NCBI GenBank assembly: GCA_027493525.1
Contig: JAOSKN010000002.1
Coordinates: 1,271,326-1,335,325, forward strand
Origin: Planctomycetota bacterium
GTDB lineage: Bacteria > Planctomycetota > SZUA-567 > H5-PLA8
Direction: 5' to 3'
Length of the DNA stretch: 64,000 bases
Shown: positions 3,411 through 26,326 of the stretch, one piece after another
How positions within the stretch are numbered: the first letter of the stretch is position 1
Layout of the letters: every line of letters begins with the position of its first letter
Position numbers and translations under genes: made by a program
Notes under the pieces: generated by a model
Databases searched by the model: none
Told to the model about the DNA's origin: nothing
The model's input: only the letters and a program-made list of their open reading frames with translations

Positions 3411-3650
3411 TCTGTGATCTGTGAACTGTGATCTGTGACCTGTGGTCTGTGAACTGTGATCTGTGATCTGTGATCTGTGATCTGTGATCTGTGAACTGTG
3501 AACTGTGAACTGTGATCTGTGATCTGTGATCGTAATCAGTAATCAGTGATCAGTGATCTGTAATCTGTGGTCTGTGAACTGTGATCAGAATACAGAATAC
3601 AGAATACAGATTACAGATTACAGATTACAGGCATCCGAAAGGCGGACTCT
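3411..3650. repeat. tandem heptamer array (CTGTGAT / CTGTGAA / CTGTAAT) followed by inverted (CAGAATA / CAGATTA)n
   Basis: Direct 7-bp periodicity is visible, and the two halves are reverse complements, so the region can fold as a long hairpin. Confidence 0.9.
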
Positions 3651-4043
3651 ATGGGCGCGACCGGGAAGGCGTTCCGAATCGAGTCGGTGGCGCACGGGGA
3701 GACGGTCCTGAGTGGGCCGCTCGAGGTGCGGCTGCGGGAGCGGATCGGATGGACGCCGCTGGCGGCGGGCGAACGCGGCGGCGTGCCGGGCTGGGTGGCG
3801 CGGCGCGAGGGGTACGAGGCGGAGGTGCTCGCCACGGATCTGGCCGACGCGCTGGCCGCGGGCGCCAAGGCGACGCTGACGATCGTGCTGAAGGACGCGG
3901 GCGGCGGGAACGTGACGGTCTCGATCGCGGGAATGCGGCGCGGGCCGGTGGAGTGGCTGATGGAGCGCGGGCCGTTCACGCGGCGGATGGTCTTCCGGCA
4001 CGAGGGCGAGGCCGGCGCGGGGACGCTTACGGTGAGCGCATGA
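3651..4043 (+). CDS. hypothetical protein (possible tail component)
   Basis: A clean 130-aa ORF that begins immediately after the heptamer arrays. Confidence 0.5.
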   Translation: MGATGKAFRIESVAHGETVLSGPLEVRLRERIGWTPLAAGERGGVPGWVARREGYEAEVLATDLADALAAGAKATLTIVLKDAGGGNVTVSIAGMRRGPVEWLMERGPFTRRMVFRHEGEAGAGTLTVSA

Positions 4044-4083
4044 GCGCGCGCCGGCGCGGGGTTCCGAAGAGAGAGGAGCGGAG

Positions 4084-4347
4084 ATGAACGAGCGGAGGCC
4101 CACGACGGCGGCCGAGCGGGCGCTGGCGGCGCTGGCGGAGTTGTTCGCCGCTCCGGCGTCGGGCGAAGCCGAGGCGCGGAGCGAACTCGCGCTGCAGGCG
4201 GGGGAAGAGCGCGAGGCCGAGCCGGCCGGGGCGCGGCGCGCGGCGCGGCCGGAGGGCGCGACCTTCGTGAGCCTGGAGCGGCGGCGGCAGGAGGAGTGGC
4301 TCTTCGGGCGGCGCCGGCGGAGACGGAGCGGGTGGCGGGTGGACTGA
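4084..4347 (+). CDS. hypothetical small protein
   Basis: An 87-aa ORF 41 nt after the preceding gene, with an Ala/Glu-rich N-terminus and an Arg-rich tail. Confidence 0.3.
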   Translation: MNERRPTTAAERALAALAELFAAPASGEAEARSELALQAGEEREAEPAGARRAARPEGATFVSLERRRQEEWLFGRRRRRRSGWRVD

Positions 4348-4535
4348 GCGGGCGGAGCGGCCGGTTGCTGGTTGCCAGTTGCCAGTTGCCGGTTGCCGGT
4401 TGCCGGTTGCTAGGGAGCGCGCTTCGCGCGGATTTTTTCAGGCGCCGCCCCTGCCCCTCCTCAGGGAGGAGGGGAAATCGCGCAAGAACCGGCATGCAAT
4501 TTAGGGCATACCCCTTTGATTCCAGGTGCGAAAGT

Positions 4536-4660
4536 TTAAGCGTTCACTGTTCACTGTTCACTGTTCACTGTTCACTGTTCGCTGTTCACTGTTCACTGTT
4601 CACTGTTCGCTGTTCACTGTTCACTGTTCACTGTTCACTGTTCACTGTTCCTCGGAGCAA
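4536..4660. repeat. (CACTGTT)n, about 17 units
   Basis: Seen in sequence. Confidence 0.9.
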
Positions 4661-4663
4661 CCC

Positions 4664-5083
4664 ATGGCCGATTGGCTGGTTGGCGGCATTACGTACCTCG
4701 ATCCGGTTGGAATTGCAGACGCCGGCGGGCTGGTCTCGGGGCGGTACTGGCTTGGCGAGGTGCGGATTTCACACCCCGAGATCGAGGAACAATTCTACGG
4801 CTTTCCGGGGGTGGATGGGGTGGGCGTCAAGACGTTCGGGTTCCGCGGGCGGCGGCTACGGGGCGGCGTGGCGTATCTGGCGGCCTCCACCTTCGACCTG
4901 CGCGCGGCGCTCGATGCCGACCGCGCCGCGCTGCGCGGGGTCTCCTTTTCGTGCCAGGCGCCGGACGGGTCGGCGTACGCGAACTGCCGGTTGGAGGCGC
5001 TGCCCGACGGCGCGGTGCTGCTGGACGCGGGCGGGCTGTTCGCGATGCGGACGGAGTTGAGGCTCTTTCAGGCGCGGGAGTGA
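4664..5083 (+). CDS. hypothetical protein
   Basis: The translation is protein-like from MADWLVGGITYLDP onward. The upstream ORF portion is the translated (CACTGTT)n array, which is an artefact. Confidence 0.5.
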   Translation: MADWLVGGITYLDPVGIADAGGLVSGRYWLGEVRISHPEIEEQFYGFPGVDGVGVKTFGFRGRRLRGGVAYLAASTFDLRAALDADRAALRGVSFSCQAPDGSAYANCRLEALPDGAVLLDAGGLFAMRTELRLFQARE

Positions 5084-5564
5084 TGCTGTTGTCGGTTGCT
5101 GGTTGCTGGTTGCTGGTTGCTAGGGGGCGCGTTTCGCGCGGATTCATTAGGGCACCGCCCCTGCCCCTCCTCGGGGAGGAGGGGAAACGCATAAGACAGG
5201 CGGGGGCGGGTATCCGTTGCTTGCCACCACCTTCAGGTGGTGGATCGCGGCTCCCATTTATTGCTTATTCCGCCGGCTTAAGCCGGCGGAATGAGGAGCT
5301 GTTGGGGCTGGGCACCACCGGCTGAAGCCGGTGGCAAGCAACGGATAAGGGAGGCGGCACGGCGGGCGAGCAGGATGCTCGCGGACGGGAGAACGAAAAG
5401 ACGCGCGGGCGGGACGCCCACGCGAGCCGGCGAGGACGCCGGCGCTACGGGCGGGGCACGGGGCGGCTTCGCCGACCCGTGGCACGGCGGACTGAAGGAA
5501 ACGCACCTTAGCAACCGGCAACCGACAACAAACAACCAGCAACCCGATCTGCGGAGGCGAGGCG

Positions 5565-7424
5565 ATGGCTCAGTACGTTCCGAATTCCGACGACGCGCAA
5601 TTCGATCAATATGCGGGCCAGGAATTCGAGGATCCGCTGGCCTACGCGAGCGCGCAGCCCAAGCGGATCGACGCAAAATTCTTCCTCAAGCCGGTCCAGG
5701 ATGAATTGCTGCGGCTGATCGAGCTGGCCTTGGAAGGGCTGGCGGCGCTCCCGGTGCGAAATGGGACCGGAAGTCTGCTGGAAAAAGGCGCGCTGGTCCG
5801 CGTCGCCGGCTTCGACTCGGGCGCGTCGCGGTGGCTGGTGGAACCGGCCGACGCGAACGACGCTTCGCGGCCCGCGCAGTTCGTCCTGGACGAGGCGCTG
5901 GCCGACGAGGCCGAGGGCGTGGCGTACGCGCACCGAACGGTGAGCGGGCTGGACACGAGCGGGACGGCGCCGAACGATCCGGTGTATCTGTCGGCGGAGG
6001 AGGGCGTGTACGGCTTCGCGCCGCCGGAAGGCGCGGCGCGGGCGCAGGAGGTCGGGCGCGTCGCGGCGGTTGGGGCGGAGGGCGCGATCTGGTTCAGCGT
6101 GGGCGGCCTTGCGGCGGGGCGCGCCCCGGGCGGGACCGGCACGCCGGGCGCGCTGGCGCGCTGGAGCGGCGCGGGGGAGCTGGGCGACGCGGCGGTGAGC
6201 GACGACGGGAGCGATTTGACGCTGGCGCCGAGCGGGACGGTGTACGCGGCGGCGGCGCTGGTCCCGGACTCAGGAAACGCGCGGGACCTGGGGAGCGCGG
6301 AGGCGGCCTGGCGCGGCGCGTACCTGGGGGAGGACACCGGGAGCGGCGCGCACTTCGGCGCGGACGCGGACTGGCGCTGGTACTACGACGAGGCGGGGCT
6401 CGACGCGCTGATGCTGGCGGAAAGCGACGTTCCGGCGCTGGCGCTGAAGGGCTCGGACCCCGGGAATTTTAACGCGGTTTCGGACACGAATGGGAACGAC
6501 CTGTACTTCAAGACGCAGGGTGGCGGGGCGCACGCGGGCGGCAACCCGCGCGGCGGGCGGCTGATCTTCGTGACGGGCGCGGCCGGATCCGGCGGGTCGG
6601 GCGCCGAGGGCGACGTGCGTTTTCGAAGGAGCGACGGGAGCTACGAGCTGCGGATCGAGACGCGCAATTCACTGGGGCGCGGCGGCTTCGACGTGACGAC
6701 GGGTTCGCTGCTGGATTTTCGCGTCAACGGGACGATCTGCCTGAGCATCTCGAGCGGCGGATTTCAGGTCGCTTCCAGCAAGGAATTCAGCTTCGGGACG
6801 ATCTCCAACGCGGTGCTGCGGCATGCGGCGATCGGGAGCGACGCGGCGACGTACGAGTTCCAGGTCATCGGGCAGAACGCGTTCGCGGCGGCATCGACGA
6901 ACCGCAACGGCGGGAACGTGGTCGTCACGCCCGGGGCGCACGCGACGTCGGGCGGCGCGGCGGGGCGCCTGGTCGTGCGCGACCCGCACGGTTCGGCGGG
7001 CGTCGACGAGGTTCACGTGCAGCACGACGGGACCGACGCGCGGATCGAGCCGAAGAGCGGGGAACTGCGCGTGGCCGGGAGCGGGCTGCGCGTGGAGAAC
7101 GGCTGCGCGCTGGACGCTCAGACGCCGGCGGCGCTGGACTCGGACGCGAACGATTACGATCCGGGCGCGAGGACGTTCACGCGGCTGAGCGCGAGCGCGG
7201 CGCGGAACGTGACCGGCCTGGCCGGCGGGAGCGACGGGCGGCAATTGTGGGTCGCCAACGCGGGGAATTTCGCGATCGTCTTCAAACACGAGGCTGCCGG
7301 ATCGGCGGCGGCCAATCGCCTGATCGGGATCGGCGGGACCGACGTGACGCTGGCCGCGAACGAGACGGCGATTCTGATCTATGACGGGACGACGCAGCGC
7401 TGGCGGTTCATGGCGAGGACGTAG
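5565..7424 (+). CDS. phage tail fibre-like protein (Gly/Ala/Ser-rich, 619 aa)
   Basis: A long clean ORF with Gly-rich beta-strand-like composition typical of tail fibres or spikes. It sits among phage-like neighbours; the assignment is from composition and context only. Confidence 0.6.
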   Translation: MAQYVPNSDDAQFDQYAGQEFEDPLAYASAQPKRIDAKFFLKPVQDELLRLIELALEGLAALPVRNGTGSLLEKGALVRVAGFDSGASRWLVEPADANDASRPAQFVLDEALADEAEGVAYAHRTVSGLDTSGTAPNDPVYLSAEEGVYGFAPPEGAARAQEVGRVAAVGAEGAIWFSVGGLAAGRAPGGTGTPGALARWSGAGELGDAAVSDDGSDLTLAPSGTVYAAAALVPDSGNARDLGSAEAAWRGAYLGEDTGSGAHFGADADWRWYYDEAGLDALMLAESDVPALALKGSDPGNFNAVSDTNGNDLYFKTQGGGAHAGGNPRGGRLIFVTGAAGSGGSGAEGDVRFRRSDGSYELRIETRNSLGRGGFDVTTGSLLDFRVNGTICLSISSGGFQVASSKEFSFGTISNAVLRHAAIGSDAATYEFQVIGQNAFAAASTNRNGGNVVVTPGAHATSGGAAGRLVVRDPHGSAGVDEVHVQHDGTDARIEPKSGELRVAGSGLRVENGCALDAQTPAALDSDANDYDPGARTFTRLSASAARNVTGLAGGSDGRQLWVANAGNFAIVFKHEAAGSAAANRLIGIGGTDVTLAANETAILIYDGTTQRWRFMART

Positions 7425-7574
7425 GCGGTTGCTGGTTGTCGGTTGTCGGTTGCTGGTTGCTGGTTGCTGGTTGCTGGTTGCTGAGGAGTTTTTCTTCTTG
7501 TACTCATGTCACGTCGAAGGTGGTAATTTTACTGCGTGAAAGGATAACATTTACCGAACCATTAGGCGCATTCC

Positions 7575-7937
7575 ATGGGAAATCGCATTACCTACCGCGA
7601 CCTGGAGGCCTGGAAAAAGGCCATGGATTTCGTGGAGCAGGTCTACCGCCTTTCCGCTCAGTTTCCCGAATCCGAACGTTTCGGCTTGAGCGCACAATTG
7701 CGCCGGTCGGCTCTTTCCATTCCTTCTAATATCGCCGAAGGCCAAGCGCGCGCGACGGTCGCCGACTTCAAGCGCATGCTGTACATCGCCCGCGGTTCAC
7801 TGGCCGAGGCAGAGACCCAATTGTTAATAGCGGTCCGTCTTGAATACATTGGCCGAAATGCCCTGAAGCCCGTTTGGCGCCAGGCACAGACCGTTGGCCG
7901 GCTCCTGAATGGCCTGCTTCGGGCGCTGAAGGACTGA
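7575..7937 (+). CDS. four-helix-bundle protein (TIGR02436 / Avd-like family)
   Basis: A 120-aa protein whose sequence resembles the 23S-rRNA-intervening-sequence / Avd four-helix-bundle family. The gene region has markedly lower GC than its flanks. Confidence 0.7.
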   Translation: MGNRITYRDLEAWKKAMDFVEQVYRLSAQFPESERFGLSAQLRRSALSIPSNIAEGQARATVADFKRMLYIARGSLAEAETQLLIAVRLEYIGRNALKPVWRQAQTVGRLLNGLLRALKD

Positions 7938-8064
7938 AGACGCGCGCGTCTGCTGGTTGCCGGCTGTCGGTTACCGGCTGCTATGAGATTCTCTATTTAC
8001 TGCCCTCACCTCGAAGAAAAAGAAAGCACCTCAGCAACCAGCAACCGGCAGGCAAGGAGCAGCC

Positions 8065-9631
8065 ATGTCGCCAGGCATGCGAACGTCGTCGTTTCCGGGT
8101 TCGGTGGAGGAGGCGCTGCTGGATCTGCGCGTGGAGGTTCCGGAATTCGGGGGCTTCGCGCGGGTGGAATTGAAGGCCGCGCCGGGTTACGGCGCGCGGC
8201 ATTACGCGCTGTACGCCAACGCGCGGCGGGCCGGCACGGTCTGGGTTCCGGAAGGGGAAGCGGCGCGCGCGACGGTTCCGGCGCCGGCGGGGGCGGGGGA
8301 TTTGTCGGTGCACGCGGAGGACCTCGGGGATTGGCCGGGGCACGCGTACGATCCGGCGTTCACGGCGCGGGACGCCGAGTCGGGGGAGGCGCGGCAGTTG
8401 ACGCTGGCCTGGCGCGCGCGGCCGGCGTTCGTTTCGAGGGGTGACGCGCTGGGGCAGTTGACGAACTGGAACCTGGAGGGCGTCAAGCGCTTCAGCAATT
8501 CGGCGGCGGTGGAACGGCGGCCGACGCGGGCGGCGTGGAACGTGGAATTGCGCGACGATTCGGGGACGCGGACGGTGCGGCTTTACGCGGGCGCGGCGGC
8601 GGTGGCGGAAGGCTCGCGCGCGGGGGACGGGACGGTCGTCCTGGGCGCGCTGAACGGCTCGGGCCTGAGCGGGAGCGTGGAGCTGGCCTACGCGGCGGAC
8701 GCCGAGCCGGGCGGGATCGGGCTCGAGGCGCGATTTCCCGCGCGGTACGAGATCCATTACGCGCTGGGGAGCCTTGAATTTCCCCGGGAAGCGGAGGCCG
8801 AATGGAGCGACGACGGGCGCTCCAACGCGTTCCGCTGGACGAGCGGGCCGCTGGAAGCGGGGAAGCTACGCCGCGGCGGCGCGGCCGGTTTCGGACACGG
8901 GGATCGCGAGCGCGGCGGTCATAGCGCAAAGCGTAAACGTGCCGGGCGCGCCGGAGCCGCCGGGGATTCCCGAATACGCGAGCGGCGGCGCGGCGGGCAC
9001 GACGATCCGCTGGGCGGCCTCGCCGACGCCCGGCGCGACGTACCGGATCTACGCCGGCGCGGTGGGCGGCGCGATCGACACCACGACGCCCGTGACGACG
9101 GCCGCGGCGGGGAGCGGGACGCTGGAGGCGGCGCTGCCGGCGGCGGCGGGGTATCCCGGGGTGCGGCGCGTGCTGGTGCGCGCGCTTTCAGGCGGCGCGG
9201 AGGAGCGGAACGGCGCGGTGCTGGAGCTCGAGTACGATTCGAGCGGCGCGGCGGTTCCGGCGCGGCCGAATGCGCCGCGGGTGCGGGAGGTCTCGGTGAG
9301 CGGCGGGCGGACGCTGACGGTGGCAGCGGCGTATGAAGAGGCCGGCGAGCGCGCGGAGCCGGCGACGTGCGCGCTGTATCTGAAGCCGCTGGAGGAGGAA
9401 CTCGATTACGCGAGCCCCTACGCGGGCGCGGCGTGGGGCGCGGAAGTTGCGGGCGCGCGCGAGGCGGCGCTGACGGCGAGCCTGGGCGCGGACGGCTGGT
9501 ATCGGCTGGGCGTGCGCGCGCTGACGGCGGGCGGGACGTCGGACGGCAACACGCGCTGGGAGCGGGTGTACGTTTCGAGCGCGGCGCCGGCGGCGGCGGC
9601 GGGGCTGGAGGCTGCGGCGTCGCGAGGGTGA
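8065..9631 (+). CDS. hypothetical protein with apparent +1 frameshift near 8860-8890 (possible tail or baseplate protein)
   Basis: Frame 1 is protein-like for 8065 to about 8880, and frame 2 is protein-like for about 8860 to 9631. Neither frame is plausible on the other side of the junction. Confidence 0.45.
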
Positions 9632-9907
9632 GGGGGTAATATGGTGGAGCGCTGCGCGCGGATTTTTTCAGCACCGTCCCTGCCCCTCCTCGGGGAGGAG
9701 GGGAGACGGCATAGGGCGATGGAACCTAATTGAAGTAAGGCCGCTTAGCAACCCGTTGAAAAAGGGAGCGGGCCATTAAACGGCGCTTTTGCCCAACCCT
9801 TCGTTGCTCCCTCGTCACAGAGCTTCTCTGGATATGCTCCTCGGTCGCGCCTCGGTCAGGACAAAAATCGCTCGTTTACCGACCGCACCCCCATTTTCAA
9901 CGGGCTG

Positions 9908-10075
9908 CTAGTGTCCTGTAAGAGAAATCCATTGCGCATTTTGGGGTGCTTTTGGCCGTGCTCTTCGTTGCGCTCCGATCAGCGTATCTTCTTGATACGA
10001 TGACTCTTCGCGCGCCTCGATCACGGTCAAAATCCCTCCCAAACCGCATCAACGAATTTCTCTTACAGGACACTA
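9908..10075. mobile_element. MITE-like element, 168 bp, with 21-bp inverted ends CTAGTGTCCTGTAAGAGAAAT
   Basis: The inverted ends at 9908-9928 and 10055-10075 match perfectly. Its core matches repeats near 2490, 9780, 30760 and 62050. Confidence 0.7.
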
Positions 10076-10480: not shown

Positions 10481-10715
10481 GGGGGCTCCGGGGGTTTGTA
10501 ATCTGTAATCTGTAATCTGTGATCTGTGATCGAAACTACGGTAATCGGTGGGCGGTGCACGGTAAACGGTAGAAATGGGGGGTTGCTGGTTACCGGTTTC
10601 CGGTTGCTGAGGTGCTTTCCTTTCTGGTTCAATTGGCAGGCGACGCATCAGAAGTTCCATGGCGACCGGCAACCGGCAACTGACAACCGGCGTGCGTGAC
10701 GAAAGCGGGGGCGCG

Positions 10716-12827: not shown

Positions 12828-12851
12828 GGGGGGAAGCTCCAGGGCAAAAAA

Positions 12852-12935
12852 GACAAGTAAACAGTAAACAGTAAACAGTAAACAGTAATCAGTAATCAGT
12901 AATCAGTGAACAGTGAACAGTGAACAGTGAACAAT
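12852..12935. repeat. (AACAGTA)n (AATCAGT)n (GAACAGT)n heptamer arrays; reverse complement of CACTGTT
   Basis: Seen in sequence. Confidence 0.9.
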
Positions 12936-13335
12936 TCGGTGTGGCTCGTTTGCTGTTTTCATTTTGCTGTTTGTTTGAGATTTGGTTCTTGTCGTTTGCC
13001 GTTTTGAGTCCTGAAGGGTCGAATGAGAATAGCCCAGCGATTCATCGCTGGGAAAATGGTTGGGTTCGCTGGGCGCGGGAAGCATCAAATCAAAAGAACC
13101 AAAACCCAAACAAATTTCAAACGGCAAGAACAAAATTCCAAACAATCGGCGAACAGATCGGCGCTCGAACTCATGCCGCCCCTGCGGGGCTCAAACGAGT
13201 CAAGGGCCGAGTACCAGGGGCTTACGCCCTGGCTATAGCATGGCGGCCCCGCGGGCCTGAATGGCGGTATGGGAATTCATGCCGCGATTGTTAAGTTAAG
13301 GAAATGTGACTGCAACAGCCGGTGACCGGCCCCGG

Positions 13336-13648
13336 CACACCACTGGGTGGTGTGGCACCTAAGACTCACGACGCGGCGGAGGGGACGCTGGGCGCGGGCG
13401 AGTGGCGACCGGGAACAGAGAACCGGGAACCGGTGACCGAAAACCGTTGTTCGCGCGGGCGGCACACCACTGCGTGGTGTGGCACCCAAAACTCACGACG
13501 CGGCGGAGGGGACGCTGGGCGCGGGCGAGTGGCGACCGGGAACAGAGAACCGGGAACCGGTGACCGAAAACCGTTGTTCGCGCGGGCGGCACACCACTGC
13601 GTGGTGTGGCACCCAAAACTCACGACGCGGCGGAGGGGATGGTTGGCG
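13336..13648. repeat. 117-bp tandem repeat, about 2.7 copies, each copy containing the hairpin box GCACACCACTGCGTGGTGTGGCACC
   Basis: Copies at 13336-13452, 13453-13569, and a partial copy at 13570-13648. The box also occurs at 108-135. Confidence 0.85.
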
Positions 13649-13715
13649 CGGGCGAGCGCAGATGATAGCGCGATATTTAAGCTCATGTTTTTGAGAAAAA
13701 CTTGGATATGAAATA

Positions 13716-13938
13716 GCTACTGTTCACTGTTCACTGTTCACTGTTCACTGTTCACTGTTCACTGTTCACTGTTCACTGTTCACTGTTCACTGTTCACTGT
13801 TCACTGTTCACTGTTCACTGTTCACTGTTCACTGTTCACTGTTCACTGTTCACTGTTCACTGTTCACTGTTCACTGTTCACTGTTCACTGTTCACTGTTC
13901 ACCGTTCACCGTTCACCGTTCACTGTTCACCGTTCACC
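13716..13938. repeat. (CACTGTT)n, about 30 units, with CACCGTT variants
   Basis: Seen in sequence. Confidence 0.9.
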
Positions 13939-14140
13939 GTTCATTGGCTACCTGGCACACGGTATCCGGCAACCGGCAACCAAGCTGAGGCAGACTCTTG
14001 CATGAATCTCGACCGGACCGGCATCGATCTTTCCATCCTGCGCCGGCTGGCGCTGGCGGAGCGGGCTCGGGCGCGGGAACGGGGCCCGGCGGGGCGGACG
14101 CGGGTGCGTTCGGCGGGCGCGTTGGGGGCAGCCGTACGAC

Positions 14141-14604
14141 GTGCTCGAACTGGATTTCTTCGCCGCCGAGCCGCTTTCGGCGCAGCCGGGCTCGGGCGAG
14201 ACGGCCTTCGCGTACTCGCCGGAGCTCGTCTTCGACCCGCCGTATGGCTTCGCGCCGTACACGCTTTTGTGGGCCGAGCCGCAGCCGCTCGAACTGGACG
14301 ACGCGGCCCTGGGGGACTCTTCCGGGCTTACTTCGAACTGCGCTTCGACGACGAGCGGGTCGAGAACCTGAACGTCTTCGAGGTCTACGCGCCCGGGGAC
14401 GGGAGCGTCGCGGCGATCCCGCCGTTCATCGACAGCGCACAGGAGGCCGGGGAAGGGCGGCGGCTGGTGGGCGCGCGGCTGGCGCTTTCGGCGGACGGGC
14501 CGGGGACGGCGACGGCCACGCTGTATCCGGGCGTCTCGTGGCTGCTTTTCTTCCGTTCGCGGGAGGGTCAATACCGGCATGAGGAATTGACGATTGACGA
14601 TTGA
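14141..14604 (+). CDS. hypothetical protein with apparent frameshift near 14320
   Basis: Frame 2 is protein-like for 14141 to about 14320, then frame 1 is protein-like to 14604. Confidence 0.35.
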
Positions 14605-14684
14605 CGATTGCGGAATGCGGAATGCGGAATGCGGAATGCGGAATGCGGAATGCGGAATGCGGAATGCGGAATGCGGTTGGATGG
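14596..14684. repeat. (GAATGCG)n, about 11 units
   Basis: Seen in sequence. Confidence 0.9.
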
Positions 14685-14910
14685 GGTGACGCGACGATGC
14701 TGCGATGAAATTTAGTATGTGTTCAAATGAGGATGCAAATGCGCGGGCTGAGGCTCGCGTTTTTTTTTGCTCCATGCCTGCCGGCGGGGACGCAAGCGTA
14801 TGCGGGCGGCTCGTTGCGCTGAGGCGCGGCCCGGCCGGGTATGCATAAAAAAATGCGGAGGATACCGGTCAGGGCGTCCTCCGCATTCGATCGGGTGTGG
14901 AGGATTCCGG

Positions 14911-15144
14911 TTACTCGGCCTTCTTCTCCTCGGTCTTCGCTTCGCCGGTCTTTTCGCCGGTCTTTTCCGTCTTCTCTTCGGTCTTGCCTTCGCCGGTCTT
15001 CGCTTCTTCGCCGGTCTTGGCCTCGGTCTTGGCCTCGTCTTCCGCGTGCCCCATCGGAGCAGCGGCCATCAACCCCAGACCCAACAGCAACGCCAATGCG
15101 AAACGCACAGCACGCCCCCTTTCAATCGGGTTTCTTGCGACCAT
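14911..15144 (-). CDS. small secreted protein with KTE/KTG repeats
   Basis: Signal-peptide-like ALALLLGLGLMAAAPMGHA, followed by a charged repeat. Confidence 0.35.
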   Translation of the reverse strand: MVARNPIERGRAVRFALALLLGLGLMAAAPMGHAEDEAKTEAKTGEEAKTGEGKTEEKTEKTGEKTGEAKTEEKKAE

Positions 15145-15345
15145 CGCGAACCATTCGCGAAGCCGCTATCTTTACCATAACCTGACGAAACCATGTAGCT
15201 TATCTTCAAAGAAGCGGCTTATGTAACATTTGTCCACAAAAGGGATTATGGAATTGCGTGCCGAAATTTCCCACATCGCCTGCCCCGAATCCCTACCTTC
15301 TTATGCCGCGGCGCGAGAATTCTGGCCTGAAATCGGGCGGGTGAA

Positions 15346-15625
15346 CGGCGGTTGCCGGTTGTTGGGGTGCTTTCTTTTTTGTTTGAGGTGCTGGCGATAG
15401 ATCGAGAATTCCGAAGCAACCGAGAACCGATAACTGGCGGGCGGCGCACCTCTGCGCGGTGTGGCGCCAGGGAGGAGGCGACGCGGTTGTCGGTTGCTGA
15501 AGTGCTTGCTATTTGGATTGGAAGTGCAGGCCACAAGAAAAGAGTTCCAAAGCAGCCGGGAACCGGTGGCCGGCGGGGGGCACGGGGCAGCTTCGCTGAC
15601 CCGTGGCACGGCGGGGTGCGAGACG
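15346..15625. repeat. composite repeat element: GTTGCYG array + AT-rich core (GGTGCTTTCTTTTTTGTTTGAGGTGC...AAGAGTTCCAAAGCAACC) + inverted GAACCGG array + CGGCACGGGGCAGCTTCGCTGACCCGTGGCACGG box
   Basis: Related copies lie at 26327-26565, 27686-27885, 29093-29262, and at 20125-20188 joined to 21662-21790 (split by the IS66 element). Confidence 0.8.
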
Positions 15626-15723
15626 GTTGGCGGGGGCGCGCCGGGCGCATGCGCTTTACCGGCGCGCCGCGCCGGATAAAAGAGGGAGGAACGCAACCCC
15701 GCTTAAACCCCAGGAGCCCCGCC

Positions 15724-15954
15724 ATGGCCAAGACCACGTGCCCCATCAGCCGCGAGGAGTTCCGCGCGCACGCGAAGGCGATCAAGATCGAGATCAACGG
15801 GATCCCGATGATGGCCGAGGTGAAGGAATTCTCGACGGGTTCCTTCGGCTGGTATCTGAGCGGGAAGACGGCGCTCGAAATCGGCGGCAAGACGGTCTCG
15901 GTGCAGGTCGGCGCGAACCTGACGGTGATTGGGAGCAAGGAGTTGCCGAAGTAG
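15724..15954 (+). CDS. small hypothetical protein (76 aa)
   Basis: MAKTTCPISREEF follows a purine-rich stretch (AAGAGGGAGGAACG). The remainder of the translation is protein-like. Confidence 0.4.
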   Translation: MAKTTCPISREEFRAHAKAIKIEINGIPMMAEVKEFSTGSFGWYLSGKTALEIGGKTVSVQVGANLTVIGSKELPK

Positions 15955-15956
15955 GG

Positions 15957-16195
15957 CCGGGGGTTGGGGAAAGTATGAAGTATGAAGTATGAAGTATGAA
16001 GAAAGAGAAAGTATGAAGTATGAAATATGAAATATGAAATATGAAGTAAGAGGCTTGAGGCTTGAGGCTTGAGGCTTGAGGCTTGAGGCTTGAGGCTTGA
16101 GGCTTGAGGCTTGAGGCTTGGCAAGAGTGCTTTGGATTTCGTACTTCTTCTTTTTCATACTTCATACTTCATACTTCATACTTCATATTTCATCC
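15957..16195. repeat. nested heptamer arrays: (GTATGAA)n, then (GCTTGAG)n, then inverted (TTCATAC)n
   Basis: Seen in sequence. The outer arrays are reverse complements of each other. Confidence 0.9.
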
Positions 16196-16411
16196 TTTCC
16201 CAAACAAACGGCAAACGGCAAATGGAAAACGGCGCGGGACGGGCGGCTGAATTCGGGAGCATGGAAACATATGGGCTTGGAATTCGGAAGACAGGACAGG
16301 CGGCGAACCGCGGCCGGAGCAGGGGCGCCGGCGGCGTGGGGCGCTTGCCAGGTTCGGGACCTTCCTTTAAGTTAGCTGGATTGAAAGCCTTCAACTCAAA
16401 AGGAGCGCGCC

Positions 16412-16903
16412 ATGGCCAACCCGATCGTCGTTTTCACCACGTCGCAGGGGAGCTTTGAGGTGGAACTGTACGCGGACAAGACGCCGGCGACGGTGCAGAA
16501 CTTCGTCCAGTACGTGAGCGACAAGCACTACGACGGGACGATCTTCCATCGCGTGATCGACGGGTTCATGATCCAGGGCGGCGGTTTCGGGGCGGACGGG
16601 AAGCAGAAGCCGACGCGCGCGCCGATCAAGAACGAGTCGGGGAAGGGCCCGAAGAACTGCAACTACGGGATCGCGATGGCGCGGACGAGCGACCTGAACA
16701 GCGCGACGGCGCAATTCTACATCAACGTGGCCGACAACGCGTTCCTCGACGACGGCCAATACTGCGCCTTCGGGAAGGTGACGCAGGGGACGCAGACGAT
16801 CGACAAGATCAAGAAGGTCGCGGTGGACAAGCCGGGGCGGCTGAGCGAGGCGCAGCCGAAGACGCCGGTGGTGATCGAGTCGGCGACCGTCAAACCGCAG
16901 TAA
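16412..16903 (+). CDS. ppiB: peptidyl-prolyl cis-trans isomerase, cyclophilin type
   Basis: Cyclophilin hallmark motifs are present: FHRVIDGFMIQGGGF and NCNYGIAMAR. Confidence 0.9.
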   Translation: MANPIVVFTTSQGSFEVELYADKTPATVQNFVQYVSDKHYDGTIFHRVIDGFMIQGGGFGADGKQKPTRAPIKNESGKGPKNCNYGIAMARTSDLNSATAQFYINVADNAFLDDGQYCAFGKVTQGTQTIDKIKKVAVDKPGRLSEAQPKTPVVIESATVKPQ

Positions 16904-17095
16904 TCTGTAATCTGTGATCTGTGATCTGTGATCTGTGATCTGTGATCTGTGAGCTGTGGTCTGTGATCTGTGGTCTGTGATCTGTGGTCTGTGAGCTGTG
17001 GTCTGCAATACGTAACGGCGAACGGTAACTGCTGACGCCGCTGGCTAGTGAGGGATTTTTTACAGATTACAGATTACAGATTACAGATCACAGTC
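16903..17095. repeat. (CTGTGAT / CTGTGGT)n, then inverted (CAGATTA)n
   Basis: Seen in sequence. Confidence 0.85.
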
Positions 17096-17102
17096 TTCCC
17101 CC

Positions 17103-17981
17103 ATGCCCATACTCAAAGACCTGGCCGTCGTGCTGCGGACGTACGAGGTCTCGAACACGAGCCTCGTGCTGGTGCTCTTGGGCCGGCGGCTGGGTCAGGT
17201 GCGGGTGCTGGCGAAGGGCGCGCGGCGCTTCCACAAAAAAGGATTCGAGGGCGGCTTCGACCTGCTGGCGCAGGGCGAGGTGGTGGCGTATCCGCGGCGC
17301 GGGGAGGCGCTGTGGATATTGAAGGAGTGGGACGAGCGATCGCGCGCGGCGGGGCTGGGACGCGGGGCGCGGGAGCTGTGGGCGGCCAGTTACCTGTGCG
17401 AACTGGCGGAGGCGCTGACGCGCGAAGGCGCGGGGAGTTCGGGGGAGGACGGCGCGGGCGGGGACGAGGCGCCGGCGCGGCTGCACGGGTTGCTCGGCCG
17501 GGCCGCGCGGGCGCTGGAGTCCGGGGCATCGCCCGGCGCGACGCTGCTCTGGTTCACGCTCCACGCGCTGGAGTCGGCGGGGCTGCTGCCGGAGCTGGGG
17601 GCGTGTTCGCGCTGCGGGAAGGAGCTGGCGCGGAGCCGGCGGCCGGCGCGGCTGAACGCGGAGGGGCTGGTCTGCGAGGGGTGCCTGGCGGGGGAGGCGC
17701 TGGAGCGGCTGCCGGTGGGGGCGGCGCCGCCGGGGACGGTGGCGGAACTGGCGCGGCTGCTGGAGGCCGCGCCGGGGACGCGGCGCGCCGGGGCGGTGTG
17801 GCTGACGCCGGAGCTGCTCGGGGCGCTGCGGCATATCCAGCGCACGGGGAAGCCGGTGAAGCTGAGCGCGGGCGCGGCGCGGGCCGGGGCGCGGGCGCTG
17901 CTGGCGCTGGTCCACAACGCGCTGGAGCGCGACCTGCGCACGCTGCGGGCGGCGGCGAAGATGGTGGTGGAGATGAAGTGA
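17103..17981 (+). CDS. recO: DNA repair protein RecO
   Basis: An N-terminal OB-fold-like region (VVLRTYEVSNTSLVLVLLGRRLGQVRVLAKGARR) plus a CxxC...CxxC zinc finger. Confidence 0.85.
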   Translation: MPILKDLAVVLRTYEVSNTSLVLVLLGRRLGQVRVLAKGARRFHKKGFEGGFDLLAQGEVVAYPRRGEALWILKEWDERSRAAGLGRGARELWAASYLCELAEALTREGAGSSGEDGAGGDEAPARLHGLLGRAARALESGASPGATLLWFTLHALESAGLLPELGACSRCGKELARSRRPARLNAEGLVCEGCLAGEALERLPVGAAPPGTVAELARLLEAAPGTRRAGAVWLTPELLGALRHIQRTGKPVKLSAGAARAGARALLALVHNALERDLRTLRAAAKMVVEMK

Positions 17982-17984
17982 GAC

Positions 17985-18250
17985 CGTCATTGGTCATTGG
18001 TCATTGGTCATTGGTCATTGGTCATTGGTCATTGGTCATTGATGCGTGAAGAAACTAATTCCTGGACGATTTCAAGACATATTTAATGAATATAATGAAC
18101 TATTTAATGATTAATGATTAATGATTAATGATTAATGATTAATGATTAATGATTAATGATTAATGATTAATGATTAATGCTCAATGCTCAATGCTCAATG
18201 CTCAATGCTCAATGCTCAATGCTCAATGCTCAATGCTCAATGCTCAATGC
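17985..18250. repeat. (GGTCATT)n, (TAATGAT)n and (CTCAATG)n heptamer arrays
   Basis: Seen in sequence. Confidence 0.9.
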
Positions 18251-19330
18251 TCAGGCTTCTTCTCGCTTCCCATTCAAATTCCGGCCGATCGCTTCCAGGG
18301 TCGCGTGGTTTCCGTCGAGTTTTCCCCGGTCGATGCGGGCCTGATAGAAGTCGAGGCGGCCGAGGAACCCGCGGAGGCGGGCGGCTTCGACGGCGTGAAA
18401 GTCGGTCCAGTCTCCGGCGCCGGAGGCTTTGAGGAAATGCGCGTTGATGTACTGTTCGTAATTGCGGGGCTCGGGGAGCGCGAAGACGGGCTTGCCGAGG
18501 TAGAGGGCCTCGCCGACGAGCTGGTTGCCGGCGGTGGAGACGAGGGCGCGGCAGGCGGCGAGGTCGTCGAGGAATTGGCGGTCGTCGACGGGGAGGAATT
18601 GGAGCGCGCCGTCGGGGGGCGCGGCGCCGAGGCCGTAGACGCGGACGGGCAGGCCGCAGGCCTTGAGCGCGCCGAGGACGCGCGGGCCTCCGAAGCGGCG
18701 GAGGTAGACGAGCAGGTGGCCGGCGTCGCGGGGCCTGGCGTCGCGGACGGCGGGGCGCAGGAGCACGCCGACCTGCGTGACCGGGCCGTTGCCGCGCTTG
18801 AGCGGCGGGAAGTAGAACGAAGAGACGACGGTCTCGCGCTGCCCGCGGTAGTAGCCCTTGACGATGAGGCTCATGAAGCGCGCGTGGGCGCGCAGGTGGA
18901 AGGGCAGGGCGGAGAGGTCGCAGCAGACGAGGAAGTGCTGGTGCGAGACGCTGACGAAGGGCAGCCCGCTGGCGCGCGCGGCGCGGGGCAGCGCGGGTTC
19001 GAAATCGACGATGGCGAGGTCGGGCGCGTCGGCGTCGATGCGCCGGCGCAGGCCGGCGACGAGCGCGTTCAGATTCCAGAGGTAGCGCGCGCCGGCGGCG
19101 CCGGTCTTGAGGAAGGCGACTTCCTGGCGGCGGTTGTAGCGGAAGCGCAGGCCCGGCAGTTCGACGACCTCGACGTCGGTGCCGGCGTAGAGCGGGGCGA
19201 GGAGCGCGTGGGCGTCGCCGGGGGTGAAGAGGGTGATGCGGTGGCGCGGGCGCAGGAGCTCGACCAGCGTCCGCGCGCGCGCGGCGTGCCCGCGCCCTTC
19301 CCCCGCCATGCTGTAGAAGAGCCGGGCCAT
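18251..19330 (-). CDS. glycosyltransferase (MGT / GT1-GT28-like)
   Basis: MARLFYSMAGEGRGHAARA is a G-rich N-terminal motif typical of UDP-glycosyltransferases. The protein is 359 aa. Confidence 0.75.
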   Translation of the reverse strand: MARLFYSMAGEGRGHAARARTLVELLRPRHRITLFTPGDAHALLAPLYAGTDVEVVELPGLRFRYNRRQEVAFLKTGAAGARYLWNLNALVAGLRRRIDADAPDLAIVDFEPALPRAARASGLPFVSVSHQHFLVCCDLSALPFHLRAHARFMSLIVKGYYRGQRETVVSSFYFPPLKRGNGPVTQVGVLLRPAVRDARPRDAGHLLVYLRRFGGPRVLGALKACGLPVRVYGLGAAPPDGALQFLPVDDRQFLDDLAACRALVSTAGNQLVGEALYLGKPVFALPEPRNYEQYINAHFLKASGAGDWTDFHAVEAARLRGFLGRLDFYQARIDRGKLDGNHATLEAIGRNLNGKREEA

Positions 19331-19802
19331 GGGCGCGGGTGGGGTCCTCGGGCGAAGGAGGCGAAGTACGAACGGCAAACTGCAAACGGCAAGAACCAAA
19401 TTCCAAACAAACGGCAAACGGCAGACTGCGAACGGCTGATTGCAGACGGCAAGTGGACTATCGGTGAGGGGTGTGGGGAGGGGATGAAGGGCAGGGAAAG
19501 ATGCGGGGAAGGGGGTATTCAGTTCCGAGTTCCGAGTTCCGAGTTCCGAGTTCCGAGTGCCGGGGAAACTGCTTCTAACCACAGAGAACACAGAGATCAC
19601 GGAGGAAGAAAGTCTAGAAAAATTTTTCTCCGTGTCCTCTGTGCTCTCTGTGGTTCCATTCCGAGTGCCGGGTTCTGAGCGGCGCCGCTTGCTGCTGCAA
19701 CCCTTTCAGGGTTGGTGAGCAATGGGGCGGCGGACCCAGGGTAGGCGCGGCGCGCCAACCCTGGGCTGGGATATGCAAGCCCTTCGGGCTTGGGCGGCGG
19801 GA

Positions 19803-26313: not shown

Positions 26314-26326
26314 GCGGCGGCCGGGG

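What the first reader, a model, noticed from the sequence alone, without database searches (positions are those of the whole stretch)
3411..19560. Pervasive intergenic tandem arrays of more than 12 distinct 7-bp units, frequently in inverted pairs
The units seen are CACTGTT, CTGTGAT, CAGATTA, GAATGCG, GTATGAA, GCTTGAG, GGTCATT, TAATGAT, CTCAATG, CCGAGTT, AACAGTA and GTTGCCG. Many arrays are followed within tens of bp by their reverse-complement array: CTGTAAT/ATTACAG at 3420-3650; GTATGAA ... TTCATAC around a GCTTGAG array at 15957-16195; CTGTGAT/CAGATTA at 16903-17095. These pairs would form very long hairpins or cruciforms. Strict 7-bp periodicity across so many unrelated unit sequences suggests a dedicated generating mechanism rather than slippage alone. 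That could be replication-slippage hot spots tied to a 7-nt register, or a site-specific system.
Basis: seen in the sequence. Interest (0 to 1): 0.75.

Follow-up and report, generated by a model that had tools for sequence, protein, structure and literature searches.

The report
Seven-base repeat hairpins filling a prophage
The spaces between genes in a virus-derived segment of a Planctomycetota genome are built almost entirely from tandem 7-base repeats, often as mirror-image pairs, and because the neighbouring ordinary genes lack them this gives an internal control for the old puzzle of why bacteria favour 7-base repeats.

Summary
Exact tandem runs of three or more units number 36 for period 7, and 0 or 1 for every other period from 2 to 15. 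About 94% of array bases are non-coding, and 9 inverted pairs fold into very stable hairpins.

Three corrections apply.
- The 21 exact units collapse into about 9 families linked by single substitutions.
- The arrays run from 0.86 to 29.2 kb, with four small ones at 34 kb. None lie in the 14 spacers of 37-64 kb.
- The array zone matches a prophage- or GTA-like segment with strand-wide GC3 skew.

Seven homologous head-gene clusters in other Planctomycetota assemblies carry period-7 arrays at the same kinds of positions. Units mostly differ, and in two loci the arrays stop where ordinary genes begin. One unit, GGTTGCY, forms the arms of a dispersed hairpin element with at least 7 copies. One copy is split by an IS66 insertion.

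Best reading: STRR-like heptanucleotide microsatellites that expand and decay in place in the spacers of a phage-derived element. A dedicated generator or a function is neither shown nor excluded. This is a new variant of a known, unexplained kind.

The parts
1..859 (+). 3' part of the major capsid gene (HK97/Gp13-like). It marks the head module of the phage-derived element, which runs off the left edge of the window.
   Evidence: Pfam PF20036 E=1.6e-24. PHROG major head protein E=2.5e-29. Homologues of 73-91% identity in Planctomycetota MAGs.
864..890 (.). (CGGTTGT/GGTTGCC) x3.9 array, starting 5 nt after the capsid stop codon.
3393..3630 (.). (CTGTGAT and variants) x27.9, directly followed by (CAGAATA/CAGATTA) x6.4. 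This is an imperfect inverted pair filling the spacer from the stop at 3396 to the ATG at 3651.
   Evidence: MFE -102 kcal/mol, z -6.3.
4360..4410 (.). (GGTTGCC) x7.3 array after the stop at 4347. It is followed by a dispersed ~70-nt repeat that includes a terminator-like hairpin at 4417-4438.
4542..4650 (.). (GTTCACT) x15.6 array ending 13 nt before the ATG at 4664.
5094..5544 (.). (GGTTGCT) x4 at 5094-5121 and (AGCAACC) x5 at 5510-5544, flanking a structured 390-nt spacer.
7427..8063 (.). (GGTTGCT) x8.1 and (CAGCAAC) x2.7 arms with GCTGAGG/CCTCAGC junctions. They enclose a 23S-rRNA-IVS/bAvd-like four-helix-bundle gene at 7575-7937 (+).
   Evidence: Pfam PF05635 E=2.4e-37.
10497..10691 (.). 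(TGTAATC) x5, then one copy of the GGTTGCY-armed hairpin element at 10581-10691.
12856..12973 (.). (AGTAAAC -> AGTAATC -> AGTGAAC) x11.1 in blocks of variants, then a (GTTTGCT) x3.7 partial inverse.
13719..13943 (.). (ACTGTTC) x32.1, the longest array. Its unit is the inverse of the last block of the 12856-12933 array.
14586..14676 (.). (ATTGACG) x3.6 abutting (TGCGGAA) x9.7.
15349..15610 (+). Two copies of the GGTTGCY-armed hairpin element, each with only 2-unit arms (15349-15435 and 15476-15610).
15971..16233 (.). (AAGTATG) x10.7, (GAGGCTT) x10.1, (TTCATAC) x6.3 and (CAAACGG) x4.1. The palindrome extends into the unique flanks.
   Evidence: MFE -134 kcal/mol, z -9.7.
16903..17093 (.). (ATCTGTG) x14.7 and (TTACAGA) x4.9. 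The pair spans the whole spacer between the cyclophilin stop (16903) and the recO ATG (17103).
17986..18253 (.). (GTCATTG) x8, (TTAATGA) x10.9 and (AATGCTC) x11.1, between convergent recO and a glycosyltransferase gene.
   Evidence: MFE -87 kcal/mol, z -13.
19371..19562 (.). (AACGGCA), (CAAACGG) and (AGTTCCG) x6 arrays.
20135..21772 (+). A hairpin-element copy split by an IS. The arms are 20135-20171 and 21704-21740, with the conserved tail at 21745-21772.
20189..21661 (-). IS66-family insertion sequence. Transposase at 20197-21600 (-). TIR GTAACCGTTCAGTYCCCTA. 8-bp target duplication CTTTTCTG at 20181-20188 and 21662-21669.
   Evidence: Pfam PF03050 E=1.4e-30. Sequence. GC3 skew 0.01 against 0.13-0.61 for its neighbours.
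26335..26556 (+). Hairpin-element copy with long arms: (CGGTTGC) x8 and (GGAACCR/GCAACYR) x about 9-12.
   Evidence: MFE -133 kcal/mol.
27694..27864 (+). Hairpin-element copy: 7 left units, a 55-nt core, 5 right units and a conserved GC hairpin tail.
29089..29253 (+). Hairpin-element copy and the last strong array. It lies 94 bp before tRNA-Ser at 29347-29434, where the GC3 skew ends.
34145..34629 (.). Four short arrays between tRNA genes, including the inverted pair (CTGTAAT) x3.4 and (TCACAGA) x3.3.
179..29008 (+). Segment in which every gene, on either strand, has G>C at third codon positions of the + strand (GC3 skew 0.13-0.61). It coincides with the array zone.
   Evidence: Composition profile.

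Best explanation
**What it is.** The first ~29 kb of the window, and probably DNA to its left, belongs to a prophage- or GTA-like element that is conserved across a family of Planctomycetota. Its non-coding spacers are made of heptanucleotide microsatellites of the kind known as STRR or heptameric SSRs.

**Shown.**
- The arrays are strictly period 7.
- They are non-coding and fill spacers from about 0-5 nt after a stop codon to about 7-21 nt before the next start.
- They come in about 9 unit families and are often mirrored as inverted pairs.
- They are restricted to the element.
- They recur at the same kinds of positions in homologous elements of other genomes, with mostly different units.

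**Inferred mechanism.** A 7-bp tandem duplication, once present, expands and contracts in place by slipped-strand mispairing or unequal exchange. Point mutations then create variant units that expand in turn, giving blocks of variants and units one substitution apart. Old arrays decay into ordinary-looking spacer, which leaves residual lag-7 periodicity.

**Inverted pairs.** These arise because many arrays grow inside pre-existing palindromic spacer elements. One such family has GGTTGCY arms, a 55-nt core and at least 7 copies in the window whose arms hold 2 to about 12 units.

**Consequence of the restriction.** Neighbouring chromosomal spacers in the same genome lack arrays. The driver is therefore not simply the host's general replication. 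Either the element's own replication or recombination history drives it (three of eight elements also carry a strong element-limited GC skew), or the element's spacers tolerate or favour such DNA.

Why the register is 7 remains unexplained here, as it is elsewhere.
For: - **Period exclusivity:** 36 exact runs at period 7 against 0-1 at all other periods.
- **Non-coding location and flush boundaries** (relatives).
- **Expansion in place:** blocks of variant units occur within arrays. Units form a single-substitution network with 14 pairs against 5.0 expected. Paralogous copies of one hairpin element are 78% identical in core and tail but carry 2 to about 12 arm units.
- **Decay:** spacers without scored arrays still show lag-7 identity of 0.36-0.44 against about 0.28 at other lags.
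- **Restriction to the element:** 17 of 23 spacers carry arrays in 1-29.4 kb against 0 of 14 in 37-64 kb, p = 6e-6. GC3 skew of 0.13-0.61 on both gene strands ends at about 29 kb.
- **Phage nature:** capsid. L080 is collinear with window 165-12062. Terminase, portal, scaffold and capsid are present in relatives.
- **Family trait:** period-7 TRF rows number L086 23, L089 21, L087 20, L088 9, L084 7, L080 7, L090 4. In L087 and L089 all arrays lie within the cluster and none in the 6-6.6 kb of ordinary genes beyond it. RecO loci of relatives have essentially none.
- **Dispensability:** the closest relative, L080, has only short degenerate arrays, and its spacers are not unusually structured (median z -0.2).
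- **Wider occurrence:** unrelated phage contigs also carry multi-unit, period-7-only arrays between structural genes.
Against: - Plain slippage does not predict one single period. No molecular ruler was identified.
- If the element is replicated passively by the host, a purely mutational origin does not explain why flanking host spacers are array-free.
- Some arrays persist at orthologous sites between relatives whose capsids are both 75-85% identical to the window's: ATTGCGG after the capsid stop in L084 and L089, and AATGATG/CATTCAT before the capsid start in L084 and L087. That hints at retention.
- The tight placement between the stop codon and the Shine-Dalgarno sequence also fits a function.
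- One array in L088 (16113-16179) and four small ones in the window's tRNA cluster lie outside the cluster proper.
- Only 64 kb of a 2.6-Mb contig was seen, so 'element-restricted' is established locally, not genome-wide.
Confidence: 0.55

Rival explanations
1. **Selected RNA hairpins.** The inverted arrays are kept because the long stems between cistrons act on the transcript, for example as RNase III-type processing sites, 3' or 5' stabilisers, or insulators that keep the downstream ribosome-binding site free. Phage T7 intergenic RNase III sites and the stems of 23S rRNA intervening sequences work this way. On this reading the heptamer register is only how such stems grow.
For: - Left arms start 0-5 nt after stop codons. 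Right arms end 7-21 nt before ATG, with a GGAG-like motif in between, both in the window and in L086, L087, L039 and L063.
- The stems are very stable.
- Arrays are retained at orthologous positions in some relatives.
- An IVS-protein gene sits inside one pair of arms.
Against: - The excess of G.U pairs on the + strand (117 against 31) follows GC skew, not gene orientation. It vanishes or reverses in unskewed relatives: L086 63 against 88, L084 6 against 16.
- Arrays also occupy divergent, convergent and tRNA spacers.
- About 60% of arrays have no inverted partner.
- The closest relative's spacers are unstructured.
Confidence: 0.17
2. **Boundary recombination motifs.** The same few units recur at many gene boundaries, so the arrays serve as register-tolerant homology for recombination. 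This would swap, delete or insert gene cassettes within the element and between related phages, as PeSL motifs do in T4-type phages. A variant is that they are folded single-strand sites, like integron attC.
For: - CTGTRAT occurs at 4 loci, GTTCACT at 3 and GGTTGCY at about 12 within 35 kb.
- Gene content downstream of the capsid differs between relatives, with unrelated cargo inserted between arrays: GH172, ParE/antitoxin and TerB in L086; a response regulator in L087 and L089; an IVS protein, cyclophilin and RecO in the window.
- PeSL precedent: PMC2839356, PMC4122927.
Against: - No recombination junction was actually observed.
- No integrase or recombinase lies in the window.
- No promoter-like motif was found (0 sigma-70-like sites in 20 kb).
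- The gene order of the structural core is conserved despite the arrays.
Confidence: 0.1
3. **Host-wide STRR-like property.** The host replisome or repair system of this species makes heptamer arrays everywhere, as in Nostocales. On this reading the array-free 37-64 kb is an atypical stretch.
For: - Genome-wide heptamer excess is documented in Nostoc and Xanthomonas (PMC4692102).
- L088 has one array among ordinary genes.
- Small arrays lie in the tRNA cluster.
Against: - 0 of 14 spacers in 37-64 kb carry arrays.
- In L087 and L089 the arrays stop at the cluster border.
- RecO loci of five relatives have none.
Confidence: 0.1
4. **Protein-binding arrays.** A protein with a 7-nt footprint coats the arrays and tunes transcription or translation of the next gene. 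It could be a cold-shock or S1-type single-strand binder, or a DNA-binding regulator encoded by the element.
For: - The arrays lie close to start codons.
- The idea has been proposed for TAACTGA repeats (PMC4679880) and for Nostoc recF/recO heptamers (bioRxiv 10.1101/2022.06.06.494920).
- TGA/TCA is enriched in units: 12 against 5.4 expected.
Against: - About 9 unrelated unit families in one element, and different units in each relative, argue against sequence-specific binding.
- No candidate protein was identified.
Confidence: 0.05
5. **Assembly artefact.** The arrays come from repeat collapse or expansion, or from chimeric joining.
For: Arrays up to 230 bp exceed short-read length, and the source reads are not available.
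Against: - The same architecture appears in eight independent assemblies from NCBI, JGI, ENA and Logan.
- Short arrays are identical in independent assemblies of the same element.
- Interspersed variant units are not what a collapse produces.
Confidence: 0.03

Closest known systems
Cyanobacterial STRR heptanucleotide repeats (Calothrix/Nostoc) and the general excess of heptameric SSRs in bacteria (Mrazek et al. 2007, as cited in PMC4692102)
   Same: - Tandem 7-nt units, with several different units per genome.
- Intergenic, with variable copy number.
- No other period is favoured.
- Function unknown; polymerase slippage with a 7-nt preference has been proposed.
   Different: - Here the host is a 67% GC Planctomycetota MAG.
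- The arrays are confined, in the 64 kb seen, to a phage-derived element rather than spread over the chromosome.
- A large share are inverted pairs.
Xanthomonas GGGAATC and Nostoc GGGGAYT intergenic heptamer repeats (PMC4692102)
   Same: - Intergenic heptamer arrays.
- In Xanthomonas they often occur as convergent inverted pairs able to form stem-loops or cruciforms.
- Length and sequence vary between close relatives at the same intergenic site.
   Different: - Those are one G-rich, quadruplex-prone unit per genome.
- Here there are about 9 families, mostly not G-rich, and many are AT-rich in a GC-rich genome.
Beggiatoaceae, cyanobacterial and Bacteroidetes TAACTGA direct repeats (PMC4679880)
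   Same: Heptamer arrays a few nucleotides upstream of start codons, in lineages with weak Shine-Dalgarno usage.
   Different: - A single conserved unit, usually 2-6 copies, genome-wide.
- Not in inverted pairs.
Pervasive tandem repeats of Borg elements (PMC9879509)
   Same: - Tandem repeats pervade a mobile or extrachromosomal element and are nearly absent from the host chromosome.
- They evolve fast and arise independently at many sites.
   Different: - Borg repeat units have many lengths and often lie in genes, where they create disordered protein regions.
- Here there is one strict period of 7 and the arrays are only non-coding.
PeSL promoter/stem-loop boundary motifs of T4-type phages (PMC2839356, PMC4122927)
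   Same: Repeated structured motifs sit at gene boundaries of a phage genome, next to variable cargo genes.
   Different: - PeSLs are a conserved promoter plus terminator sequence, not microsatellites.
- No promoter motif was found here.
REP/REPIN and MITE-like palindromic intergenic elements
   Same: The element with GGTTGCY arms, a 55-nt core and a GC-hairpin tail is a dispersed palindromic intergenic repeat with at least 7 copies.
   Different: - Its arms are variable-length heptamer arrays.
- No RAYT or matching transposase and no target duplications were seen.
- The other unit families have no shared core.

Membership tests
Heptanucleotide SSR / STRR-type repeats | Head-to-tail tandem copies of a 7-nt unit, three or more copies | tested here: met
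   36 exact runs and 53 TRF rows at period 7, with up to 32 copies.
Heptanucleotide SSR / STRR-type repeats | Located in non-coding DNA | tested here: met
   2076 of 2206 array bp lie outside my gene map, which covers 69% of the window.
Heptanucleotide SSR / STRR-type repeats | Several distinct units in one genome | tested here: met
   21 exact canonical units in about 9 families.
Heptanucleotide SSR / STRR-type repeats | Dispersed over the whole chromosome | tested here: not met
   Within the window the arrays are confined to 0.86-34.6 kb, and 0 of 14 spacers in 37-64 kb have any. The rest of the 2.6-Mb contig could not be read.
G-quadruplex-type heptamer repeats (Xanthomonas/Nostoc GGGNATC) | Unit contains a G3-4 run, so that four or more units can form a quadruplex | tested here: not met
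   None of the 21 units has a GGG run.
REP/REPIN or MITE (for the GGTTGCY-armed element only) | Multiple dispersed copies of one palindromic sequence in intergenic DNA | tested here: met
   Six copies align at 78% identity (A1) and a seventh lies at 26335-26556. The conserved tail occurs 5 times against 0 in shuffles.
REP/REPIN or MITE (for the GGTTGCY-armed element only) | Cognate transposase (RAYT or parent IS) and target-site duplications | tested here: inconclusive
   The window has no Y1 transposase, and the only transposase (IS66) has unrelated ends. No flanking duplications are evident. The rest of the genome was not seen. A Y1_Tnp gene lies in the homologous cluster of L088.
CRISPR array | Repeats of 23-50 nt separated by unique spacers of similar length | tested here: not met
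   The units are 7 nt and directly abutting.
Integron attC / cassette array | IntI integrase and conserved R/L core sites in each hairpin | tested here: not met
   No integrase domain appears in the proteins scanned. There is no shared core among hairpins of different unit families.
PeSL boundary motif | Conserved early promoter adjoining the stem-loop | tested here: not met
   0 sigma-70-like sites in 1-20 kb against 1.9 expected. Planctomycete promoters may differ.
Tailed-phage-derived element (prophage or GTA-like) | Head module: large terminase, portal, scaffold, HK97-fold capsid in order | tested here: met
   The capsid lies in the window. Terminase, portal and scaffold lie directly upstream in collinear relatives. 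The window starts inside the capsid gene.
Tailed-phage-derived element (prophage or GTA-like) | Integrase, attachment sites and a replication module (prophage), or proven packaging of host DNA (GTA) | not testable with these tools
   No integrase appears in the 10 kb upstream of the capsid in relatives. tRNA genes abut the element (L080:14-83; window 29347-29434). Particle production needs experiment.
IS66 family insertion sequence (the element at 20189-21661) | DDE_Tnp_IS66 transposase, terminal inverted repeats starting GTAA, 8-bp target duplication | tested here: met
   PF03050 E=1.4e-30 with DUF6444 and zf-IS66. The TIR matches at 17 of 18 positions, and CTTTTCTG is duplicated.

The most novel reading that the evidence does not exclude
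The heptamer arrays are not a passive by-product. They are a cis-acting feature specific to a class of phage-derived elements: the element's own replication, packaging or recombination machinery creates 7-nt staggered or slipped intermediates at gene boundaries. The resulting hairpins would then act as boundary elements that process transcripts and/or mediate cassette exchange. On this reading the 'heptamer excess' long noted in some bacterial genomes could partly be a footprint of such elements. The element-limited occurrence, the conserved architecture with changing sequence in eight related elements, and similar arrays in unrelated phage contigs do not exclude it.
Probability: 0.18. Interest if true: 0.85.

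Novelty: new variant of a known kind. Interest (0 to 1): 0.6.

Why it matters
The excess of 7-nt tandem repeats in some bacteria has been known since 1990 (STRR) and 2007 (genome surveys). It has no accepted mechanism or function. Here the arrays are dense inside a phage-derived element and absent from adjoining chromosomal spacers of the same genome, and in two related genomes they likewise stop at the element border. That gives an internal control: the cell, host replisome and repair system are the same, but the outcome differs. The question then narrows to what is special about the element, namely its replication mode, recombination or selection on its spacers. The family also offers eight or more natural replicates with different units for testing turnover rates and function. 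Separately, the conserved head cluster, whose capsid is 91% identical where RecO is only 68%, may be a domesticated phage-like system in Planctomycetota.

Tried and rejected
1. **G.U wobble asymmetry as proof of RNA-level selection.** The + strand has 117 G.U pairs against 31 on the - strand. The asymmetry holds between - strand genes and disappears or reverses in unskewed relatives, so it reflects strand composition.
2. **Correlated copy numbers of left and right arms** (mirroring by template switching or selection). Spearman rho is -0.03 over 9 pairs.
3. **Hairpins as the conserved primary feature, with arrays secondary.** The closest relative's spacers are unstructured, with median z -0.2.
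4. **Synteny of the RecO region with relatives.** Only RecO itself matches. The RecO loci L001-L005 lack arrays.
5. **Search for the hairpin element elsewhere.** The tail pattern gave 0 hits in viral and metagenome contigs. Core motifs were absent from 79 fetched loci.
6. **Relatives of the 722-aa protein in metagenome contigs.** None found.
7. **Close capsid relatives in IMG/VR.** None found.
8. **One protein search wasted.** It used a wrong reading frame.
9. **A shared gene between array-rich phage contigs and this element.** Only array-to-array and terminase matches were found.
10. **Promoter and terminator scan.** No promoter-like sites, and terminator-like sites only modestly above shuffles.
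11. **Exact-sequence look-up of the source contig.** It is not on record.

Full report
**Observation.**
Tandem Repeats Finder reports 167 rows in the window, 53 of them with period 7. I counted exact runs that span at least three units. Period 7 gives 36 runs (1399 bp). Every other period from 2 to 15 gives none or one, and Markov shuffles give none.

A looser definition gives 40 arrays and 2206 bp. Only 130 bp of these overlap a codon-bias gene map that covers 69% of the window. The raw sequence shows arrays that begin within a few bases of stop codons and end 9-19 bases before the next start. Examples are 3393-3630 before the ATG at 3651, 4542-4650 before 4664, and 16903-17093 between the cyclophilin stop and the recO start.

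They fold with MFEs of -88 to -134 kcal/mol and z-scores of -5.7 to -13. Overall, 18 of 47 arrays have an inverted partner within 700 bp, against 8.9 +/- 3.2 when units are permuted.

**Corrections to the observation.**
- *Units.* The units are not unrelated. The 21 exact canonical units fall into about nine families connected by single substitutions: 14 such pairs against 5.0 expected and at most 12 in 300 shuffles. The largest family links CTGTGAT, CTGTAAT, CTGTGAA, CAGTGAA and CAGTAAT. Arrays contain blocks of variant units, for example AGTAAAC x4, AGTAATC x3, AGTGAAC x4 at 12856-12933.
- *Extent.* The arrays extend well beyond the given coordinates, from 862 to 29230, with four weak arrays at 34145-34629.
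- *Absence elsewhere.* They are absent from the rest of the window. In 1-29.4 kb, 17 of 23 spacers carry arrays. In 37-64 kb, 0 of 14 do (Fisher p = 6e-6).

**What the array zone is.**
The window opens inside a major capsid gene (Pfam Gp13-like, PHROG major head protein). Every gene from 179 to 29008, whichever strand it is on, has G>C at third codon positions of the + strand (GC3 skew 0.13-0.61). The exception is an IS66 transposase at 0.01. From 29447 onward the skew is near zero (profile). Chromosomal loci of relatives have low skew.

The zone ends at a tRNA-Ser gene. That gene is the first of 31 tRNA genes packed into 29.3-36.8 kb on the - strand.

The capsid has homologues of 73-91% identity in many Planctomycetota MAGs. 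RecO of the same closest MAG is only 68% identical. The locus in that MAG (L080) is collinear with window 165-12062. It has large terminase, portal and scaffold genes directly upstream of the capsid. The array zone is therefore a prophage- or GTA-like element, or at least its head-to-tail part plus cargo.

**Comparative test.**
I fetched seven homologous clusters from independent assemblies. Their period-7 TRF rows were L086 23, L089 21, L087 20, L088 9, L084 7, L080 7 (short and imperfect) and L090 4. Other periods were few.
- The arrays sit 0-5 nt after stop codons.
- Right arms end 7-21 nt before ATG, with a GGAG-like motif in between.
- Many are inverted pairs, such as GAAGTGC/ACTTCGT, AATGATG/CATTCAT and GGTTTCA/AACCTGA.
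- In L087 all 20 arrays lie within the first 14.43 kb. There the cluster ends, the GC skew falls from 0.13-0.29 to about 0, and ABC-transporter genes begin.
- In L089 all 21 arrays lie within 15.0 kb, with none in the 6 kb of kinase genes beyond.
- Between 61% and 68% of spacers longer than 40 bp carry arrays in L086 and L087.
- The RecO loci of five relatives have essentially none.
- Units mostly differ between genomes, but some orthologous arrays persist. ATTGCGG follows the capsid stop in both L084 and L089. CAGGGTT in L087 resembles CAGGGTTT in L088. AATGATG/CATTCAT precedes the capsid start in both L084 and L087.
- Short arrays are identical in independent assemblies of the same element.

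**A dispersed hairpin element.**
The GGTTGCY arrays are arms of a repeated element. Its layout is (GGTTGCY)n, then the core TGAGGTGCTTTCTTTTTTGTTTGAGGTGCAGGCAACAAGAAAAGAGTTCCAAAGC, then (AACCGRS)n, then a GC-rich hairpin tail GGCACGGGGCRGCTTCGCYGACCCGTGG.

Six copies align at 78% identity. The tail occurs five times, always on the + strand and only within 5-30 kb. Arm length ranges from 2 units (15349, 15476) to about 12 (26335-26556).

One copy was split by an IS66-family insertion sequence at 20189-21661. It has 18-bp inverted ends and a perfect 8-bp target duplication, CTTTTCTG. Removing the IS restores the core. A pair of the same arms encloses a 23S-rRNA-IVS/bAvd-like gene at 7575-7937.

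The varying arm lengths show that heptamer arms change length in place. They also explain why many arrays come as inverted pairs.

**Tests of function.**
- *Wobble asymmetry.* The + strand of the hairpins has far more G.U pairs than the - strand (117 against 31). This also holds between - strand genes. In relatives without GC skew the asymmetry vanishes or reverses: L086 63 against 88, L084 6 against 16, L088 32 against 29. In skewed L087 it is present, 95 against 38. It therefore reflects strand composition, not selection on a transcript.
- *Arm lengths.* Left and right arm copy numbers are uncorrelated.
- *Closest relative.* The spacers of L080 have only degenerate arrays and are not unusually structured. 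Long hairpins are therefore not an indispensable feature of the cluster.
- *Spacer types.* Arrays occupy co-directional, convergent, divergent and tRNA spacers alike.

These results weaken, but do not exclude, an RNA-processing role.

**Wider occurrence.**
Scans of IMG/VR for two of the units found 53 and 22 stretches. Several of these contigs carry many period-7 arrays of different units and none of periods 5, 6, 8 or 9. Examples are L039, L063, L016 and L068, plus a group at 44-49% GC. Four of them encode head, tail or tape-measure proteins, and their arrays sit between structural genes just upstream of ribosome-binding sites. They share no genes with the planctomycete element apart from a terminase. 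Only viral contigs were scanned, so no enrichment in phages can be claimed.

**Comparison with what is known.**
Heptameric SSRs are over-represented in many bacteria, and a polymerase-slippage explanation has been proposed (Mrazek 2007, as cited in PMC4692102). Three heptanucleotide repeats were described in Calothrix (cited there). Xanthomonas GGGAATC arrays are intergenic, vary between close relatives, and often form convergent inverted pairs (PMC4692102). TAACTGA repeats lie just upstream of start codons in Beggiatoaceae (PMC4679880). Heptamer repeats near recF and recO affect reporter expression in Nostoc (bioRxiv 10.1101/2022.06.06.494920). Element-restricted pervasive tandem repeats are known from Borgs (PMC9879509), and structured boundary motifs from T4-type phages (PMC2839356, PMC4122927).

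The present case belongs to the heptanucleotide-SSR kind. It differs in host phylum, in the number of unit families and in the frequency of inverted pairs. Above all, it is confined to a conserved phage-derived element. I found no paper describing that.

**Verdict.**
The finding is real. The best-supported reading is that the arrays expand and decay in place as 7-nt microsatellites in the spacers of a phage-derived element, partly seeded in palindromic spacer elements. The reason for the 7-nt register and for the restriction to the element is open. A dedicated generator or a function remains possible but is not shown. I rate it a new variant of a known kind, with interest 0.6.

Noticed in passing
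window 29347-36806 (- strand); also 54044-54130 (+): A cluster of 31 tRNA genes by ARAGORN in 7.5 kb, all on the - strand. Rfam finds two more, at 33055-33119 and 34714-34787. Together they cover nearly all amino acids. An HNH endonuclease, an SPFH/Band 7 gene and a GNAT gene are interspersed. The cluster starts exactly where the GC3-skewed, array-rich segment ends.
   Followed up: partly
window 179-29008: All genes on both strands have G>C at third codon positions of the + strand (0.13-0.61), then about 0 from 29447 onward. The same element-limited skew is seen in L080 and L087 but not in L084, L086, L088 or L089. The cause is unknown; it may be the replication mode of the element.
   Followed up: partly
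window 1-12827; L080, L084, L086-L090: A head-to-tail gene cluster is conserved and collinear across many Planctomycetota MAGs. Its capsid is far more conserved (91%) than RecO (68%) between the same two genomes. No integrase lies in the 10 kb upstream in relatives, and cargo genes vary. It could be a domesticated (GTA-like) element.
   Followed up: partly
window 13007-13052 (-): An Rfam Acido-Lenti-1 RNA match (49.6 bits against a gathering score of 37) lies in the loop between a T-rich and an A-rich inverted arm (12963-12998 and 13086-13121). The motif was described from Acidobacteria and Lentisphaerae (PMC2864571).
   Followed up: no
window 13333-13656: A 127-bp unit is repeated 2.6 times at 96% identity. 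Each copy contains a CACACCACTGCGTGGTGTG hairpin and a short ACCGGGA heptamer run. Similar small CACCAC...GTGGTG hairpins occur at 5225-5245, 5315-5337 and 15440-15470.
   Followed up: no
window 20189-21661: A complete single-ORF IS66-family insertion sequence with an 8-bp target duplication sits in the T-rich core of a hairpin element. Its GC3 skew of 0.01 marks it as a recent arrival.
   Followed up: yes
window 7575-7937 (+): A 23S-rRNA intervening-sequence protein / bAvd-like four-helix-bundle gene lies between inverted GGTTGCT arms. It is absent from the collinear position in L080. The layout recalls rRNA intervening sequences, which are excised at a long stem.
   Followed up: partly
window 4413-4480 and 5125-5190; L080:1809-1869: A second dispersed repeat, AGGGRGCGCGYTTCGCGCGGATT...CCCCTGCCCCTCCTCRGGGAGGAGGGGAAA, follows GGTTGCY arrays. 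The first copy has a terminator-like hairpin plus a T-run. It is also present in the AMXMBFR7 relative at 77% identity.
   Followed up: no
L088:2188-2700: A Y1 (IS200/IS605- or RAYT-type) transposase gene lies inside the homologous cluster, next to a fragmented terminase. This enzyme class acts on single-stranded hairpins.
   Followed up: no
L087:9795-9985: An 87-bp tandem duplication contains a whole heptamer hairpin unit (the AATGATG arm plus loop) upstream of the capsid gene. So larger duplications also act on these spacers.
   Followed up: no
window units overall: TGA/TCA occurs in 12 of 21 units (5.4 expected from composition) and TAG/CTA in none (4.5 expected). Because 7 is not a multiple of 3, any unit with a stop triplet closes all three reading frames within 21 nt.
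   Followed up: partly
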